The notes under the pieces: generated by a model
The model's input: only the letters and a program-made list of their open reading frames with translations
Database searches by the model: none
What the model was told of the DNA's origin: nothing
Position numbers and translations under genes: made by a program
Shown here: piece by piece, positions 13,509-46,630 of the stretch
Numbering within the stretch: the first letter of the stretch is position 1
Layout of the letters: each line of letters begins with the position of its first letter
NCBI GenBank assembly: GCA_034003985.1
Contig: JAVEXP010000003.1
Span: forward strand, 122,643-186,642
Direction of reading: 5' to 3'
Length of the DNA stretch: 64,000 nt
Origin: Patescibacteria group bacterium
GTDB lineage: Bacteria; Patescibacteriota; Patescibacteriia; Buchananbacterales; UBA6539

Positions 13509-13755
13509 AAAATTAAAATGTTAATTTTGAAATTCGAATTTTTAATCAATTTTGAATATTCCAATATCAGATCAAAATTTAAAATTATAAAGTCATAATT
13601 AAAAGCGCAGTCTGGCTGCGCTATATTGATTGACTATAAATTTATAATTTCTGATTGAAGCTTAGCTCAAAAAATATTTTTTGTCCAGGATTGACAAACC
13701 AATAAAATAAAATTACTCTGAATGATGGTTATCATCACCATTGGAGGGCTTGATT

Positions 13756-13905
13756 ATGACCAGGCACATTCAATCTGTATCTGCCTCGAAATCTTTGGAG
13801 TGCCCAGTTCACCATCTGCCACTGGAACGCAAAGGTGGAGAGGGAAACGACAAGCTGGCTTGCCCGGTTTGCCTATGTAATGCCAAAATTGCCAACCTGT
13901 TGTAA
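13756..13905 (+). CDS. small zinc-ribbon protein (49 aa), not in the supplied ORF track
   Basis: GGAGGG RBS 7 nt upstream of ATG. MTRHIQSVSASKSLECPVHHLPLERKGGEGNDKLACPVCLCNAKIANLL. Two CPV(H/C) pairs. Followed by a hairpin plus T7 terminator. Confidence 0.45.
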   Translation: MTRHIQSVSASKSLECPVHHLPLERKGGEGNDKLACPVCLCNAKIANLL

Positions 13906-13940
13906 ACGGCAAAACGCTTTACACAACCCACTTGTTACGG

Positions 13941-13982
13941 TAGCCAACTAGCACCGTCCTGGTTCTAGTTGGCTTTTTTTAT
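13941..13982 (+). terminator. intrinsic terminator; overlaps the lspA 3' end
   Basis: AGCCAACTAG-loop-CTAGTTGGCT followed by TTTTTTT. Confidence 0.7.
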
Positions 13983-14809: not shown

Positions 14810-14851
14810 TTAATAATATGATATTAAGATTAAGGCTTAATGTCAATATTT

Positions 14852-14915
14852 CGCCAAAAAGAAAGAGGCGCGGAGAGCGCCCAAAATAACATTGTTATTA
14901 GATGGCGTCCGCGCC
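14852..14915 (-). terminator. strong intrinsic terminator ending a non-coding minus-strand transcript
   Basis: 10-bp GC stem GAGGCGCGGA/TCCGCGCCTC with a nested hairpin, followed by a U-tract on the minus strand. Confidence 0.6.
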
Positions 14916-15230
14916 TCAAAAACCTTCAACGGACGCCCGGGCACTCAGGAGGCAGAAAACCAAATTTGGTTTTCTCTCTTCTGAATGCTCAGACATTAGC
15001 CGCTGAAAGCGGTTTAAGCGCTTTCACTGACTAAAGCACTCCTCTACCCCTCTTTGGTTAGGACTCTCTTTGTTGGGCCCTTCAACCGCAATTTTTGTTT
15101 TTGTTTTTGCAGGACATAGTCAGCTTTATGTCCCGAAAGAGGAAGAGTAGTAGAGAAGAAAAAAATTTCTCCAATTATTTGGGGAAACTTTTCTGTAACT
15201 TTTCAAAGAATAGTTATTACTATATCTTAC
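14852..15230 (-). ncRNA. candidate ~380-nt non-coding RNA with its own promoter and terminator, identity unknown
   Basis: Minus-strand promoter TTGACA-17-TATACT at 15237-15265. No ORF over 30 aa and no RBS. Multiple hairpins incl. GNRA loops and a 22-bp perfect palindrome. Ends at the 14852-14915 terminator. Confidence 0.4.
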
Positions 15231-15236
15231 ACAATT

Positions 15237-15265
15237 AGTATATCACAACTAAATGGTTATGTCAA
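15237..15265 (-). promoter_or_regulatory. sigma70-like promoter (minus strand) driving the non-coding transcript
   Basis: TTGACA, 17-nt spacer, TATACT read on the minus strand. Confidence 0.5.
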
Positions 15266-23023: not shown

Positions 23024-24223
23024 CTACTGCACCGCGATGACCAAGCCAAGAGCGATGTCCTGGACATGCGTCCAGGCAATCGTCGCCCCGGCTCCTGGCT
23101 GAAATGTCGCGCAGGCGGCCGCGCGACCGTGGTAGGCCATGGCCAAACTGGCCATCAGCCAGTTCGGGCCGCGGCCCGACAGAACCACGACCGTTCCCAG
23201 CCCGACTTCGGGCGGGACGATCATGTCGAGGGCCGCGGGCGCCAGGGGGACGCTCGGGTCGAGCGCGAACTCAACCCGCACGCACCGGCGCTCGCCCAGC
23301 GCCGGCAGATCGCTGACGGTCCAGCCGCAGCCGGAACCGTCACCCGACGGGCTGGGGCAGCCCACGGCGATGTAGCCGTCGGGCGAGTTCACCCGCGCCG
23401 AGCGCGGGTGAACCTCGTGCACCAGCGCGGCAACGAGCCACGCCGGTGCGGCGCCGTCGATATCCACCACCTCGGGGAAGGTGGCGGACTGATTATGGAG
23501 CAACCCCGCGACACTCGCGAGGTCTACCCCCTCCCAGCAAAGTTGCTGCACAACCTTGCCGTTAGGGAGCGTCCGCTCCACCGCGTTTTTCCCCAGCGCT
23601 GCGGCCAGCGCCGGGATCGAAATTACATTTCCGTTGAGGAGCATACGCCCCTCCTTTCTTTCGTTGCGGCCGAGCTCGGGCCCAGCCAGACTCAAAATCA
23701 ATTCCGCCACGGCGACGATCGCCGGGCGGTCGTTGACACTCACCTCGCCCCGTTCGAGGTGGTGAACCACTCCTTCCAGCCGGGGCACGGTCTGCTGGAT
23801 GGAGTCGGCGGCGCCTTGATAATCACTGTCCAAGACAGCGACCACCTCAACGCCCAGTTGGGCTAGGAACGCCTCCCACTCGGGGACGGCATTCCGATCA
23901 CCCGCGAGAATGATCCCGTGAGTGATCCCTCCCTCCGAAACGATGCGAGCGTTTTCGGAGGAAGTCCGGCCGCCGATATCCACGAGGACAATCGGCGCCA
24001 GACTGCAGGAGGCGAGAGACTGGCAGTACCAGTCAACTATCTCCTGCGAGAAAGACCCTTTACGACGGTGCTTTTCAGCACCATTGCCGCGCCAGGTCCA
24101 GCTCCCTTCCCCGTCCGGGCAGGCCCGGAACAGGTAACGGGAACTTCTTGGCAGGTTCTCGCATAACCCGCCAAGAAATACGGACTTCCCACTGTGGGGA
24201 GGTCCGGCGACAACGATTTTCAT
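23024..24223 (-). CDS. island gene G3, very GC-rich P-loop NTPase (Walker A GPPHSGKS, DIGG Walker B/G3-like) with uncharacterised C-terminal half
   Basis: AAAGGAGG RBS 6 nt upstream of ATG (MKIVVAGPPHSGKSVF...). About 400 codons. Plus-strand ORFs over it are Arg-rich antisense shadows. Confidence 0.6.
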   Translation of the reverse strand: MKIVVAGPPHSGKSVFLGGLCENLPRSSRYLFRACPDGEGSWTWRGNGAEKHRRKGSFSQEIVDWYCQSLASCSLAPIVLVDIGGRTSSENARIVSEGGITHGIILAGDRNAVPEWEAFLAQLGVEVVAVLDSDYQGAADSIQQTVPRLEGVVHHLERGEVSVNDRPAIVAVAELILSLAGPELGRNERKEGRMLLNGNVISIPALAAALGKNAVERTLPNGKVVQQLCWEGVDLASVAGLLHNQSATFPEVVDIDGAAPAWLVAALVHEVHPRSARVNSPDGYIAVGCPSPSGDGSGCGWTVSDLPALGERRCVRVEFALDPSVPLAPAALDMIVPPEVGLGTVVVLSGRGPNWLMASLAMAYHGRAAACATFQPGAGATIAWTHVQDIALGLVIAVQ

Positions 24224-24296
24224 CGCTGCCTCCTTTCTCCCCGATTGGGGAGTTTTTATTTTTATGGAAACCAGCCGCCTCACATCAGCGTCCGGG

Positions 24297-25009: not shown

Positions 25010-25273
25010 TTAGTCGTACTTAACAACTGTTTCCATCTCTTCCGTATTTCTCGACTGACAATTCGGGCACATCGGCTTAAGTATTTTATGCGTCAGTTCC
25101 CCGCCGCAGTCGTCGCATTTGCCAACGGCATTTTCATCAAAGCCATCTCGGGGCAAAGCTTTTATTTTATCGCAATCAAGGCAATGATAATTATAGAATA
25201 AGGCACCATCGCCCAAATTGGACCTAAATTCATTTTGGCAATCATTGCACTTGCACATCACAATAATACCCAT
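25010..25273 (-). CDS. island gene G1, double zinc-ribbon small protein (four CxxC pairs)
   Basis: CKCNDC...CLDC...CDDC...CPNC in 87 aa. Confidence 0.55.
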   Translation of the reverse strand: MGIIVMCKCNDCQNEFRSNLGDGALFYNYHCLDCDKIKALPRDGFDENAVGKCDDCGGELTHKILKPMCPNCQSRNTEEMETVVKYD

Positions 25274-26345
25274 ACCTTAAATCATTATTAATTTCTTGTT
25301 TTTTGCTTTCTTAAAATTGTCAAAGTACTTCCTATTTTAGCTCCTCACCAGATGCTCCTAATACCTGGAGTAATTTCATTTCTCTTAAAATTATTTTTTC
25401 TAACTAGGATTGTTCTTTCCGCAAACCGGTGGTTAATCGGCCTACGGAAAACGTCAATCCCAACTAGGTTTGACGCTTGGCCCGGTCCAAAAAATTCAGA
25501 ATCAATACCTCACCCTTTAAGCGAAGCCTGATTAATCAAAAATTCTTAAACCGCTAGCGCTTGCTCATCGCCAAATTTTTGCCAAGTTGAGCATAGTTTG
25601 AAAGTCTATGCTGAAGACTAATTCTCTCCTCAAACATCAGACTTCAATTTAGACTATAATGAACATTTTTTCTCTCTTATTGAGAGAATGCTGCAGAAAA
25701 AGAAATTCTTGGCTTAGCTTTAGGCCTTTTTTTTATTTAGACAATGTTAATTTATGCCAGCCGCGCTTATTTTTTTTACCGCCGACCGCCTGGGCGCTAA
25801 AAACGCTTTTGGCAGTGTGGCATCTCTCCTCTTTCTGCAATATCTTCCCAACAAAAAATCCGCTTTTCGCGGAGAGTTACTTTGCTCATATGACATATGC
25901 TATAAGCTAACAAGTACTCTCTCCACTTAGTACTTCCTATATAATGTAATGTTCGGCTAGTGATTTTAACCACTGTCTCCGACCACCGTCACGGCCGGAT
26001 CACACTGATTACAATCTTTTGGGCTTAAAGAAGATTTACCAAGGTATATCTTTCTCCTCAATTAGCAGACCTTGATTAACCTTTACCTTTTTACTGCCCT
26101 TTTGATTAACCCCTCTTGCTGGTTGTCATTCTCCTCAAATGGCTTCCAGACTTGTTGGGGATGTGTTTTATAGAACCTTTTGTCAGCTTTTAAAACTTCT
26201 TGGTTTTTTAGCTTAACGAGTCATTATAGCATATCTTAAAAATACTGTCAAGTATTTGTGACAATAATTATTCATTAAATTGTATTTTAGCTAAAATAAG
26301 CTAGCTTAGTTTGGTAAATTTAGCTAAATATTTGTCATAAATTCT

Positions 26346-26378
26346 TGACAAAAAATTATAAAAGGTATATAATAATAA
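26346..26378 (+). promoter_or_regulatory. sigma70-like promoter for the TrmB-like regulator
   Basis: TTGACA-17-TATAAT. Confidence 0.5.
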
Positions 26379-26408
26379 TAGATAAATAAACAATTACCAA
26401 CTAATCAT

Positions 26409-27236
26409 ATGTACGAGCAACACCTCAAACAAGCCGGTTTGTCTAAAGAACAGGCGGAAATATATGAGCTGTTAATTAAAAAAGGCCCACAAAAAGCCGG
26501 CAAAATAAGCCAAAAAACCACGCTGAAGCGAGGCTTAGTCTACAAAATTCTTGAACAACTAGTGGATTTTGGCTTGGTTGAGAAAATAGAAAAGGAGGGT
26601 CAAATAGCAACTTTTATTCCGGCCCATCCCCTAAAGCTGAGAGAGCTGGCTCAAAAGCAGGAACAGCAGGCCAAAGACGCCCAGCTGGCCTTGGCTGGAG
26701 TTTTGCCTTCTATTATCTCTGACTTTAATTTGGTTTCAGGCAAGCCGGGCGTCCGATTTTTCGAGGGTGCAAGCGGCTTAAAACAAATTTATGACGATAT
26801 ATTGGCGACTCTGAAAAACAGCGAAACTTTTTATTTAATCCGGGCCGCTTATGAGCCAGTGTATAAAGAAAAAATGATCCCAATTATTGACGATTTTATT
26901 AAAAAAAGAGTGAAAAAAAACATTAATGTCGTCGCCTTAACTCCCGCCGACGAGCTGGCTGAAGAAAAAACAACGAATACCCAGGCGGACCAGGCAATTC
27001 TGTTTGACCGGACCTTGGTTGATAAAAAAAAATACTCCCAGCCGGTGGAAATTGACATATATGGTGATAAAATTGCCATGCTTTCTTTCGGCCAGGAATT
27101 AATCGGCACAATAATAGAAAGTCCCCAGATCTCTGGGGCTTTAAAAGAAATTTTTATTTTAGCTCAAAAAGGCGCCAAACTTAAGCCGCCGCTGGAAGAT
27201 CAAGGGCTTTATGATGGGATCCGTAATGTTCCTTAA
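26409..27236 (+). CDS. TrmB-family transcriptional regulator
   Basis: N-terminal wHTH (LSKEQAEIYELLIKKGPQKAGKISQKT...) with C-terminal TrmB-type effector domain. Confidence 0.7.
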   Translation: MYEQHLKQAGLSKEQAEIYELLIKKGPQKAGKISQKTTLKRGLVYKILEQLVDFGLVEKIEKEGQIATFIPAHPLKLRELAQKQEQQAKDAQLALAGVLPSIISDFNLVSGKPGVRFFEGASGLKQIYDDILATLKNSETFYLIRAAYEPVYKEKMIPIIDDFIKKRVKKNINVVALTPADELAEEKTTNTQADQAILFDRTLVDKKKYSQPVEIDIYGDKIAMLSFGQELIGTIIESPQISGALKEIFILAQKGAKLKPPLEDQGLYDGIRNVP

Positions 27237-46554: not shown

Positions 46555-46630
46555 GCCCATGTAGCTCAGCGGTTAGAGCGCCACCCTTATAAGGTGGATG
46601 TCGGTGGTTCAAATCCACCCATGGGCACCA
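46555..46630 (+). tRNA. tRNA-Ile (anticodon TAT)
   Basis: Anticodon stem CCACC/GGTGG with loop CTTATAA. CCA encoded. Confidence 0.7.

What the first reader, a model, noticed from the sequence alone, without database searches (positions are those of the whole stretch)
14852..15265. Promoter-to-terminator ORF-free transcript (~380 nt) upstream of the dksA-like gene: candidate novel ncRNA
On the minus strand a near-consensus promoter (TTGACA-17-TATACT, 15237-15265) fires leftward into about 380 nt. This stretch has no ORF over 30 aa and no RBS, and is visibly more GC-rich than the surroundings.

It ends at a very strong terminator: a 10-bp GC stem GAGGCGCGGA/TCCGCGCCTC with a nested hairpin, followed by a U-tract (14852-14915). 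The dksA-like gene then starts from its own promoter.

Inside are several hairpins, including GNRA-type loops (CCGCTGAAAGCGG), and a perfect 22-bp palindrome AGAAAACCAAATTTGGTTTTCT (14952-14973).

I could not match it to known RNAs. The tmRNA tag and 3' end, the RNase P CR motifs and SRP domain IV were checked by eye, and none matched.
Basis: seen in the sequence. Interest (0 to 1): 0.6.

Follow-up and report, generated by a model that had tools for sequence, protein, structure and literature searches.

The report
New conserved structured RNA gene in Patescibacteria
The flagged stretch is a real, independently transcribed gene of about 375 nt for an intricately folded non-coding RNA that matches no catalogued RNA family; it is conserved at the same genomic spot across many lineages of the ultra-small Patescibacteria (CPR), and its function is unknown.

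Summary
On the minus strand, a near-consensus extended -10 promoter (15265-15237) drives about 375 nt that end at a strong hairpin plus U-tract (14917-14856).

The stretch is not coding. It matches none of the 4227 Rfam 15 families, and ARAGORN finds no tmRNA.

Homologues lie at the same position, between pnp (with or without an unknown membrane protein) and a DksA/TraR-like gene. They occur in about 50 of 80 related genomes and in 48 metagenome contigs found from the RNA motif alone.

Covariation supports these elements:
- a 5' hairpin;
- an invariant long-range helix, CUUCUCUACU/GGUAGAGGAG;
- a multi-helix junction;
- a 5-bp kissing loop with complete compensatory swaps;
- an invariant single-stranded (CAAAAA)3 tract;
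- a long variable hairpin;
- a 3' terminator hairpin whose 5' strand can also pair with an upstream segment.

Three results argue for a stand-alone trans-acting RNA rather than a leader. The RNA promoter is conserved in 50 of 52 loci. The dksA-like gene has its own strong promoter after the terminator. In one lineage the dksA block is inverted while the RNA is unchanged.

Function is unknown. My best inference is a compact RNP or structural RNA, comparable to orphan RNAs such as raiA or OLE. This appears to be a new family.

The parts
15237..15265 (-). Promoter of the RNA gene: -35 TTGACA (15265-15260), 17-nt spacer, TG-extended -10 TATACT (15242-15237), with AT-rich DNA upstream. The predicted start is near 15230.
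   Evidence: One search gives 11 of 12 matches with TG. In homologues, 50 of 52 distinct upstream regions score at least 10 of 12 and 50 of 52 carry the TG extension; shuffled controls never exceed 10 and mostly score 8-9. TTGACA is invariant in the alignment.
15195..15230 (-). 5' leader of the RNA, with a semi-conserved UUGAAAA.
   Evidence: Alignments. The MFE pairs GAAAAG with the 3' U-tail. This pairing was not tested by covariation.
15159..15194 (-). Hairpin H1: AGAAAAGUUUC-C-CCAA / loop / UUGG-A-GAAAUUUUUUU. The apical loop varies in length.
   Evidence: 15 pairs, 97.6% of cells paired, 3 pairs with compensatory changes. Loop insertions such as that in L006 support the hairpin.
15144..15158 (-). 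5' strand of the long-range helix LR (CUUCUCUACU, 15158-15149, plus CUCU, 15147-15144). It continues the pyrimidine strand of H1.
   Evidence: Pairs with 15048-15039 and 15053-15050. 99.5% of cells paired over 65 distinct sequences, and 5 of 10 pairs have compensatory changes. Distant members swap fully, for example L049 CUAAUUCACU/GGUGGAUUAG.
15111..15134 (-). Hairpin H2 (GGGACAUA / UAUGUCCU). Its loop AAGCUGAC carries the 5' half of the kissing loop (CUGAC, 15123-15119).
   Evidence: All 8 stem pairs have compensatory changes.
15092..15109 (-). Invariant single-stranded tract (CAAAAA)3 in the junction between H2 and H3.
   Evidence: AAAACAAAAA(C) is invariant or nearly so in every subfamily. 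It is unpaired in the consensus structure. One- and two-nt indels just 3' of it exclude coding.
15056..15087 (-). Hairpin H3: GGUU-GA-AGGGCC / loop with AAAGAG / AGUCCU-AACC.
   Evidence: All 8 pairs have compensatory changes; 84-95% of cells paired.
15039..15053 (-). 3' strand of the long-range helix LR (AGAG-G-GGUAGAGGAG), preceded by the conserved CCAAAG.
15020..15037 (-). Hairpin H4 (GCUUU / AAAGC). Its loop AGUCAGUG carries the 3' half of the kissing loop (GUCAG, 15031-15027).
   Evidence: Stem: all 5 pairs have compensatory changes. Kissing loop CUGAC/GUCAG: 95.7% paired over 65 distinct sequences, with pair types UA:40/CG:10 and GC:53/AU:3. The loop-loop pairing was not part of the covariance model, so this is an independent test. 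Full swaps occur in L033 (CCAAC/GUUGG), L081/L083/L030 (CCGAC/GUCGG) and L076 (CCUCAC/GUGAGG).
14922..15010 (-). Long irregular hairpin H5, the variable domain. Its apex is the perfect palindrome at 14975-14954.
   Evidence: 22 upper pairs are 96.5% paired and 17 have compensatory changes. The lower and middle stems are 78-85% paired, and all 18 pairs have compensatory changes. Other subfamilies carry different hairpins here.
14930..14937 (-). Segment x (GGCGUCCG), part of the 3' strand of H5. It is also complementary to 14911-14904 (CGGACGCC), forming the alternative helix X.
   Evidence: Helix X is 75.6% paired and 5 of 8 pairs have compensatory changes. Triple covariation x/r3/r4 is seen by eye, for example L008 UCUG/CAGA/UCUG and L005 ACCG/CGGU/ACCG. 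The MFE prefers H5 closed.
14856..14917 (-). 3' hairpin and intrinsic terminator: GAGGCGCGGA (14917-14908) pairs with UCCGCGCCUC (14874-14865). Inside are an inner CGCC/GGCG helix, a conserved GCCAY and an AU-rich apex. The U-tract is at 14864-14856.
   Evidence: The outer stem is 91.6% paired and 7 of 10 pairs have compensatory changes. The smaller local hairpin GGGCGC/GCGCCU has none.

Best explanation
This is a stand-alone gene for a roughly 375-nt, highly structured non-coding RNA. It is the window's copy of a previously uncatalogued RNA family found in the Parcubacteria-group lineages of Patescibacteria, with records labelled Buchanan-, Falkow-, Uhr-, Kerfeld- and Veblenbacteria.

Shown:
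- It has its own conserved strong promoter.
- It ends at its own covarying intrinsic-terminator-type hairpin followed by a U-tract. Termination itself was not observed.
- It does not code for protein.
- It has a conserved fold. A 5' hairpin is followed directly, on one continuous pyrimidine strand, by an invariant long-range helix, so the two may stack coaxially. That helix closes a junction holding two hairpins and an invariant 18-nt (CAAAAA)3 strand. The loop of the inner hairpin H2 kisses the loop of hairpin H4, which lies outside the long-range helix. A variable long hairpin and a conserved 3' hairpin follow.

Inferred:
- It is made constitutively and abundantly, like a stable RNA.
- It acts in trans as a compact tertiary-folded RNA, most likely as the RNA part of a ribonucleoprotein.
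- The invariant A-rich junction strands either build the core by packing into the invariant purine/pyrimidine helix, or present a single-stranded platform for a protein.
- The 3' domain can toggle between two pairings: H5 closed with the full terminator stem, or helix X. I put about 0.3 on the protein-platform detail.

It is not a leader of the dksA-like gene.
For: Independent transcription unit:
- Promoter 11 of 12 with TG, conserved in 50 of 52 distinct loci.
- Terminator stem covaries.
- The dksA-like gene has its own promoter after the terminator in nearly all loci, with 12 of 12 matches in L004, L006, L009 and L021.
- In L119/L121 the dksA-lspA-comM block is inverted. The RNA stays beside pnp and the unknown protein, is fully intact, and faces a convergent gene.
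- In L087 a 666-aa gene sits between the RNA and dksA.

Conserved structure:
-;
- kissing loop with full compensatory swaps;
- MFE z-score -8.75.

Breadth:
- covariance-model hits in about 50 of 80 genome loci;
- 83 matches at E no greater than 0.001 among the 89 sources searched, which were the window, the genome loci already hit and the motif-selected contigs;
- a single copy in the window.

Not coding:
- no 3-base periodicity, and most indels are 1-2 nt;
- ORFs are short and not positionally conserved.

Not a known family. Five of the seven literature searches run named CPR, Patescibacteria or Parcubacteria, and none of the seven found a description.
Against: - No expression data were available. 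Transcription, the RNA ends and abundance are inferred from sequence signals only.
- Function is unknown, and no partner protein was identified.
- The 1-2-3-4 type complementarity at the 3' end (H5 base: x: r3: r4) resembles a transcription attenuator. A cis effect on read-through therefore cannot be fully excluded.
- The RNA is nearly always on the same strand as, and just upstream of, the dksA-like gene. However, the whole rpsO-pnp-...-comM block is syntenic.
- Whole genomes of the clade could not be scanned to show that canonical RNase P RNA, tmRNA, SRP RNA and 6S RNA exist elsewhere.
- A description in a paper outside the searchable library cannot be excluded.
Confidence: 0.72

Rival explanations
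1. It is a cis-acting leader, either a riboswitch or a protein- or RNA-controlled attenuator. A large sensor domain would decide between a terminator and an alternative helix, setting read-through from the strong upstream promoter into dksA-lspA.
For: - The RNA lies immediately upstream of, and on the same strand as, the dksA-like gene in nearly all loci.
- Chain of mutually exclusive complementarities: H5 base/x, x/r3 (helix X, 5 of 8 pairs compensatory) and r3/r4 (terminator, 7 of 10 compensatory).
- The reverse complement of r3 equals x plus r4, overlapping by 4 nt.
- The kissing loop between an inner hairpin and a hairpin 3' of the closing helix recalls large riboswitches such as cobalamin (own knowledge).
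Against: - A strong, conserved promoter for the dksA-like gene lies between the terminator and the start codon in nearly all loci.
- The RNA, including x, r3 and r4, is intact where no dksA follows (L119/L121) and where another gene is inserted (L087).
- With helix X formed, the base of the terminator stem, or the local hairpin GGGCGC/GCGCCU, can still form next to the U-tract. No clear anti-terminated state exists.
- The MFE favours the terminator conformation even in truncated transcripts for 8 of 10 sequences.
- No riboswitch or leader family matches.
Confidence: 0.12
2. It is a highly divergent version or functional replacement of a universal housekeeping RNA of similar size: RNase P RNA, tmRNA, SRP RNA or 6S RNA.
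For: - A length of about 375 nt is like RNase P RNA and tmRNA (own knowledge).
- It has a stable-RNA-like strong promoter.
- It is conserved across a whole lineage of reduced genomes.
- None of these four RNAs lies in the 64-kb window.
- An invariant long-range helix flanked by A-rich junction strands is loosely reminiscent of the P4 core of RNase P (own knowledge).
- It is a neighbour of an RNA-polymerase-binding-type protein (DksA/TraR zinc finger), which might suggest a 6S-like role.
Against: - No match to any RNase P, tmRNA, SRP or 6S model even at E up to 10 on 751 nt with permissive filters, nor in five diverse homologues at E up to 5 or 20 at gathering score.
- ARAGORN finds no tmRNA, permuted forms included.
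- No tRNA-like end, T-arm or tag frame: the A-rich tract has 1-2-nt indels and no conserved stop.
- No CR-I or CR-V motif in the right order.
- The consensus is multi-branched, with no 5'-3' closing rod or central bubble.
Confidence: 0.06
3. It is protein-coding after all: a small sense ORF, the 64-aa antisense ORF that gene callers annotate, or a decayed or frameshifted gene.
For: A 64-aa ATG ORF on the plus strand (14840-15034) is called as a gene in other assemblies of the species. Sense ORFs of 30-33 aa exist.
Against: - The antisense ORF carries stops or frameshifts in at least 11 homologues.
- The longest ORFs differ in position and frame between homologues.
- Variation shows no 3-base periodicity (0.205, 0.227, 0.223), and 31 of 38 indels are 1-2 nt.
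- Substitutions are compensatory in helices.
- This genome almost never uses Shine-Dalgarno sites, so the lack of an RBS carries no weight either way.
Confidence: 0.01

Closest known systems
raiA motif RNA (Rfam RF03072)
   Same: A well-conserved structured RNA with pseudoknot-type tertiary contacts. It sits at a fixed position just upstream of one gene, yet has its own promoter and terminator. It was first taken for a leader and later treated as an independent ncRNA of unknown function (own knowledge).
   Different: No sequence or structure match. raiA is about 200 nt and occurs in Firmicutes and Actinobacteria. This RNA is about 375 nt, occurs in Patescibacteria, and has a different architecture: long-range helix, (CAAAA A)3 tract read as (CAAAAA)3, and kissing loop.
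OLE, ROOL and GOLLD 'ornate' large bacterial RNAs
   Same: Large lineage-restricted RNAs of unknown or poorly known function, with many covarying helices and tertiary contacts. Cryo-EM shows that loop-loop contacts drive their higher-order assembly (PMC12286853, abstract seen).
   Different: Those RNAs are 580-800 nt, in other phyla or phages, and are in Rfam, which does not match here. This RNA was not found in viral contigs. Whether its kissing loop forms within or between molecules is unknown.
6S RNA
   Same: An abundant stand-alone regulatory RNA made from a strong promoter. Here the neighbour is a DksA/TraR-type protein.
   Different: 6S is a rod of about 185 nt with a central bubble and a 5'-3' closing stem (own knowledge). 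This RNA is multi-branched and twice as long, and the Rfam 6S model does not match.
Transcription attenuators and large riboswitch leaders (T-box, cobalamin)
   Same: Successive overlapping complementary segments end in an intrinsic terminator. A kissing loop joins a hairpin inside the junction to one outside it.
   Different: The downstream gene has its own promoter. The RNA persists without that gene downstream. No anti-terminated state is evident. No T-box, cobalamin or other leader model matches.

Membership tests
tmRNA | tRNA-like domain: acceptor stem joining the 5' and 3' ends, a T-arm, and a 3' CCA. | tested here: not met
   ARAGORN finds 8 tRNAs and no tmRNA in the window. No tmRNA family of Rfam matches at E up to 10.
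tmRNA | Conserved tag reading frame with a resume codon and a stop codon. | tested here: not met
   The only candidate, the A-rich tract followed by GGUUGA, has 1-2-nt indels between homologues. The UGA is lost in L012, L013, L015 and L016.
RNase P RNA (bacterial types A and B) | P4 helix formed by the conserved CR-I (GGAAAGUCC...) and CR-V (ACAGAA...GGCUUA) regions, plus the specificity domain. | tested here: not met
   No RNase P model matches the window locus or the homologues. The faint AGAGUCC and ACAGAAAAG resemblances are in the wrong order, and ACAGAAAAG is not conserved.
SRP RNA (4.5S or large bacterial) | Domain IV hairpin with a GNRA tetraloop and conserved symmetric and asymmetric loops. 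| tested here: not met
   No SRP model matches. No such hairpin appears in the consensus.
6S RNA | Rod-like fold with a closing stem of the 5' and 3' ends and a large central bubble. | tested here: not met
   The consensus structure is multi-branched, with a long-range helix and five hairpins. RF00013 does not match.
Cis-regulatory leader (riboswitch or attenuator) | Mutually exclusive terminator and anti-terminator helices. | tested here: inconclusive
   Helix X competes with the top of the terminator stem and both covary. A terminator-competent hairpin remains in either state.
Cis-regulatory leader (riboswitch or attenuator) | The regulated gene follows directly and depends on the upstream promoter. 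| tested here: not met
   The dksA-like gene has its own promoter in nearly all loci. The RNA is intact in L119/L121, where no co-oriented gene follows.
Known orphan structured RNAs in Rfam 15 (raiA, OLE, ROOL, GOLLD, HEARO and others) | Match to the family covariance model at the gathering score. | tested here: not met
   No such match in the window or in 20 diverse homologous loci.
Protein-coding gene | A conserved open frame with codon-periodic substitution. | tested here: not met

The most novel reading that the evidence does not exclude
The RNA is a new class of housekeeping ribonucleoprotein RNA or ribozyme specific to this branch of the Candidate Phyla Radiation. Its sequence-invariant long-range helix, wrapped by invariant A-rich junction strands and locked by a kissing loop, would form a catalytic or ligand-binding core comparable in logic to the P4 core of RNase P. 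The switchable 3' domain would gate its activity.
Probability: 0.15. Interest if true: 0.9.

Novelty: categorically new. Interest (0 to 1): 0.7.

Why it matters
Patescibacteria make up a large share of bacterial diversity. They have genomes of about 1 Mb and almost no experimentally characterised RNA biology.

A 375-nt RNA with a stable-RNA-type promoter, sequence-invariant core elements and a pseudoknotted fold has been kept at one locus across several candidate phyla. It is therefore likely to do something important for these cells.

New large structured RNA classes are rare. Each earlier one (RNase P, tmRNA, 6S, OLE, ROOL/GOLLD, raiA) opened a line of research.

The family also corrects annotation, because gene callers currently place a spurious 64-aa protein on the opposite strand. 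It gives a compact, covariation-rich target for structure determination.

Tried and rejected
- Rfam at gathering score on the whole window, at E up to 10 on the locus, on 20 homologous loci and at E up to 5 on five diverse loci. Only chance microRNA or snoRNA-type hits appeared.
- ARAGORN for tmRNA: none.
- tmRNA-like tag frame in the A-rich tract: rejected because of indels and a non-conserved stop.
- RNase P CR-I and CR-V look-alikes: wrong order and not conserved.
- Small sense ORFs and the 64-aa antisense ORF: rejected.
- Local small terminator GGGCGC/GCGCCU as the real terminator: no compensatory changes, unlike the long stem.
- Targets complementary to (CAAAAA)3 in the window: no more than chance.
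- Phage origin: no match in viral contigs.
- Second copy in the window: none.
- CRISPR array near the Csx3-domain gene: none.
- Conservation of the neighbouring lspA-comM spacer: species-specific only.
- Seven literature searches, five of them naming CPR, Patescibacteria or Parcubacteria: nothing relevant found.
- I considered an Hfq-type distal-face site, since 18 nt of A-A-N triplets fits one (own knowledge). I could not test whether these genomes encode Hfq.
Full report
**Organism and context**

The window comes from a Patescibacteria (CPR) genome close to Candidatus Buchananbacteria. The exact DksA-like protein is recorded by NCBI as 'Patescibacteria group bacterium', and its nearest named relatives are Buchananbacteria (lineage).

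On the minus strand the gene order is:
- rpsO (S15; 20125-19754), a NYN-domain gene and pnp (19073-16857);
- a 485-aa protein with no Pfam match and a hydrophobic, membrane-anchor-like N-terminal stretch in its sequence (16838-15381);
- the flagged stretch;
- a 123-aa DksA/TraR zinc-finger protein (14788-14417), lspA (14411-13965) and a comM/Mg-chelatase-like gene (13508-11988).

**Check of the observation**

- Promoter: TTGACA-17-TATACT at 15265-15237 is the best promoter-like site in the 3 kb scanned. It scores 11 of 12 and has a TG extension.
- Terminator: the 10-bp stem GAGGCGCGGA/UCCGCGCCUC spans 14917-14865 and is unique in the window. A U-tract follows at 14864-14856.
- Palindrome: the 22-nt palindrome is real but lies at 14954-14975.
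- ORFs: sense-strand ORFs are at most 33 aa.
- GC content: 0.42-0.54, against 0.17-0.32 in the flanking spacers.
- Fold: the sense strand folds with a z-score of -8.75, against -6.5 for the antisense strand.
- Second promoter: TTGACA-17-TATCAT at 14846-14818 precedes the dksA-like gene.
- One detail fails. The 'GNRA' hairpin was read on the non-transcribed strand.

**It is not a known RNA**

- Rfam 15 (4227 families) gives only eight tRNAs in the window at gathering score.
- On the 751-nt locus at E up to 10 it gives nothing but chance microRNA and snoRNA hits.
- ARAGORN finds no tmRNA.
- Twenty diverse homologous loci give no hit at gathering score. Five give no hit at E up to 5.

**It is conserved**

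I used an alignment of the DksA-like protein to fetch 80 loci from one genome per species.
- nhmmer with the window sequence found the stretch immediately upstream of the dksA-like gene in about 30 loci, with E-values down to 1e-67. A profile search found more.
- A covariance model of the 143-position core hit about 50 of the 80 loci. Every credible match lay on the gene's strand, just upstream of it.
- An unbiased scan of metagenome contigs, using a pattern taken from the RNA alone, returned 48 contigs.
- With the covariance model, 83 matches at E no greater than 0.001 were collected, 65 of them distinct.
- Records carrying the RNA are labelled Buchanan-, Falkow-, Uhr-, Kerfeld- and Veblenbacteria and 'Parcubacteria group'. 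A profile search also gave a weak partial match (E 0.034) in one Magasanikbacteria record, L023, which the covariance model did not confirm.
- The window holds a single copy, and viral contigs hold none.

**It is not coding**

- Variation shows no 3-base periodicity.
- 31 of 38 indels inside the conserved body are 1 or 2 nt.
- The longest ORFs differ in place and frame among homologues.
- The antisense 64-aa ORF is broken by stops or frameshifts in most homologues.
- This genome hardly uses Shine-Dalgarno sites (4 of 55 genes). The absence of an RBS is therefore not itself informative.

**Structure**

RNAalifold on 14 full-length sequences predicts 88 pairs, 43 of them with compensatory changes.

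My hand-curated model, with window coordinates:
- H1, 15194-15159.
- Long-range helix LR: CUUCUCUACU (15158-15149) with GGUAGAGGAG (15048-15039), extended by CUCU/AGAG.
- H2, 15134-15111.
- An unpaired, invariant (CAAAAA)3 tract, 15109-15092.
- H3, 15087-15056.
- H4, 15037-15020.
- The long hairpin H5, 15010-14922.
- The terminator hairpin, 14917-14865.

Support for the model:
- On the 14-sequence alignment it is 94.7% paired, against 44-50% when partners are slid. No shuffle of 500 reaches the observed values.
- On 65 distinct core sequences it is 95.7% paired, against 36-52% slid, and 29 of 36 pairs have compensatory changes. That alignment was fitted to the nested helices, so those counts lean towards the model.
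- The loop-loop pairing was not in the model. H2 loop CUGAC pairs with H4 loop GUCAG in 95.7% of cells (pair types UA:40/CG:10 and GC:53/AU:3).
- The kissing loop shows complete swaps in distant members: L033 CCAAC/GUUGG; L030, L081 and L083 CCGAC/GUCGG; L076 CCUCAC/GUGAGG.
- LR is nearly invariant in sequence but swaps fully in distant members, for example L049 CUAAUUCACU/GGUGGAUUAG.
- H1 and LR share one continuous pyrimidine strand and may therefore stack coaxially. That is an inference.

**The 3' domain**

The reverse complement of r3 (GAGGCGCGGACGCC, 14917-14904) equals x (GGCGUCCG, 14937-14930, part of the 3' strand of H5) plus r4 (UCCGCGCCUC), overlapping by 4 nt. Homologues change x, r3 and r4 together.

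On 23 distinct sequences:
- The conformation 'H5 closed + long terminator stem + inner CGCC/GGCG' is 86.8% paired, with 25 of 32 pairs compensatory.
- Helix X is 75.6% paired, with 5 of 8 pairs compensatory.
- The short local hairpin GGGCGC/GCGCCU has no compensatory change.
- Thermodynamic folding prefers the first conformation, even in truncated transcripts.

X could be a transient or alternative helix, or, together with the base of the terminator stem, an H-type pseudoknot. I could not decide between these, and I record this as unexplained.

**Stand-alone gene or leader?**

Five results bear on this:
1. The RNA's promoter is conserved. 50 of 52 distinct upstream regions score at least 10 of 12, and 50 of 52 have the TG extension. 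Shuffled controls mostly score 8-9.
2. A strong promoter for the dksA-like gene follows the terminator in nearly all loci, with 12 of 12 matches in four of them.
3. The whole pnp...comM block is syntenic across the clade. Adjacency to dksA is therefore not specific evidence of linkage.
4. In L119/L121 the dksA-lspA-comM block is inverted. The RNA stays next to pnp and the unknown protein, keeps x, r3 and r4, and faces the end of a convergent gene. In L087 a 666-aa gene separates the RNA from dksA.
5. In either 3' conformation a hairpin abuts the U-tract, so no anti-terminated state is apparent.

I therefore favour an independent, trans-acting RNA (0.72) over a leader (0.12).

**How it most likely works (inference)**

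The promoter, with an AT-rich upstream region, consensus hexamers and a TG extension, resembles those of stable RNA genes.

The combination of features points to a compact tertiary fold of the kind seen in RNP RNAs and ribozymes, rather than a base-pairing sRNA. Those features are a sequence-invariant helix, invariant A-rich junction strands, a pseudoknot-type kissing loop and a variable peripheral hairpin.

The 18-nt (CAAAAA)3 strand may do one of two things:
- pack into the invariant helices as core-forming A-minor or triple contacts;
- serve as a protein platform. Six A-A-N triplets would fit a hexameric Hfq-type distal face, and A/C-rich single strands also attract S1 and KH proteins (own knowledge, untested).

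No excess of complementary targets occurs in the window. Nothing here identifies the partner or the process.

**Comparison with known systems**

By membership it belongs to no Rfam family. tmRNA, RNase P RNA, SRP RNA and 6S RNA each fail a defining feature that I tested (see the membership table).

By analogy it is closest to orphan structured RNAs:
- raiA: fixed position upstream of one gene, yet autonomous;
- OLE, ROOL and GOLLD: ornate, lineage-restricted, with loop-loop contacts (PMC12286853).

Its 3' end borrows the logic of attenuators without the expected consequence.

**Novelty and limits**

I found no description in Rfam 15 or in the searchable literature. I rate it a new RNA family of unknown function.

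Limits:
- there are no expression data;
- whole genomes were not scanned for the canonical housekeeping RNAs;
- the literature library is incomplete;
- several alignments in the 3' region contain local misalignments that lower the pair counts.

Noticed in passing
window 46555-46630 (+): ARAGORN reports a tRNA-Ile with anticodon TAT. Most bacteria decode AUA with a CAT-anticodon tRNA modified by TilS (own knowledge), so a UAU tRNA-Ile is unusual. It may say something about AUA decoding in this lineage.
   Followed up: no
window 14840-15034 (+); L001 1042-1236; L003 305-499: Public gene calls place a 64-aa protein on the strand opposite the RNA gene. It is broken by stops or frameshifts in homologues, so it is a spurious annotation caused by the RNA gene.
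   Followed up: yes
window 23024-24283 (-) and 25023-26409: A 419-aa protein has a C-terminal Csx3 (CRISPR-associated) domain, but no repeat array lies in the adjacent 2.3 kb. That region includes a 1.4-kb stretch without any ORF of 100 aa or more.
   Followed up: partly
window 13509-13964: A 455-nt spacer between lspA and the comM-like gene has a GC-rich bump at 13750-13900 and a bidirectional terminator-like hairpin at 13604-13622. It is conserved only within the same species. It may be a decayed gene or a strain-specific element.
   Followed up: partly
whole window: Only 4 of 55 genes have a Shine-Dalgarno-like motif upstream. Many have a -10-like TATAAT within about 10-25 nt of the start codon. 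This suggests SD-independent translation with short leaders or none.
   Followed up: partly
L119 9797-10160; L121 5817-6180 and 6419-9411: In this lineage the dksA-lspA-comM block is inverted relative to pnp, the unknown protein and the RNA. A GC-rich stretch of about 240 nt lies between the RNA terminator and the convergent comM.
   Followed up: partly
L087 5102-7102: A 666-aa gene has been inserted between the RNA and the dksA-like gene in a Falkowbacteria-type contig. No Pfam search was run on it.
   Followed up: no
L114 4850-5290: The dksA-like gene downstream of the RNA in this lineage appears to have lost the zinc-finger cysteines: it reads ...GICTVTGKPI... instead of C..C.
   Followed up: no
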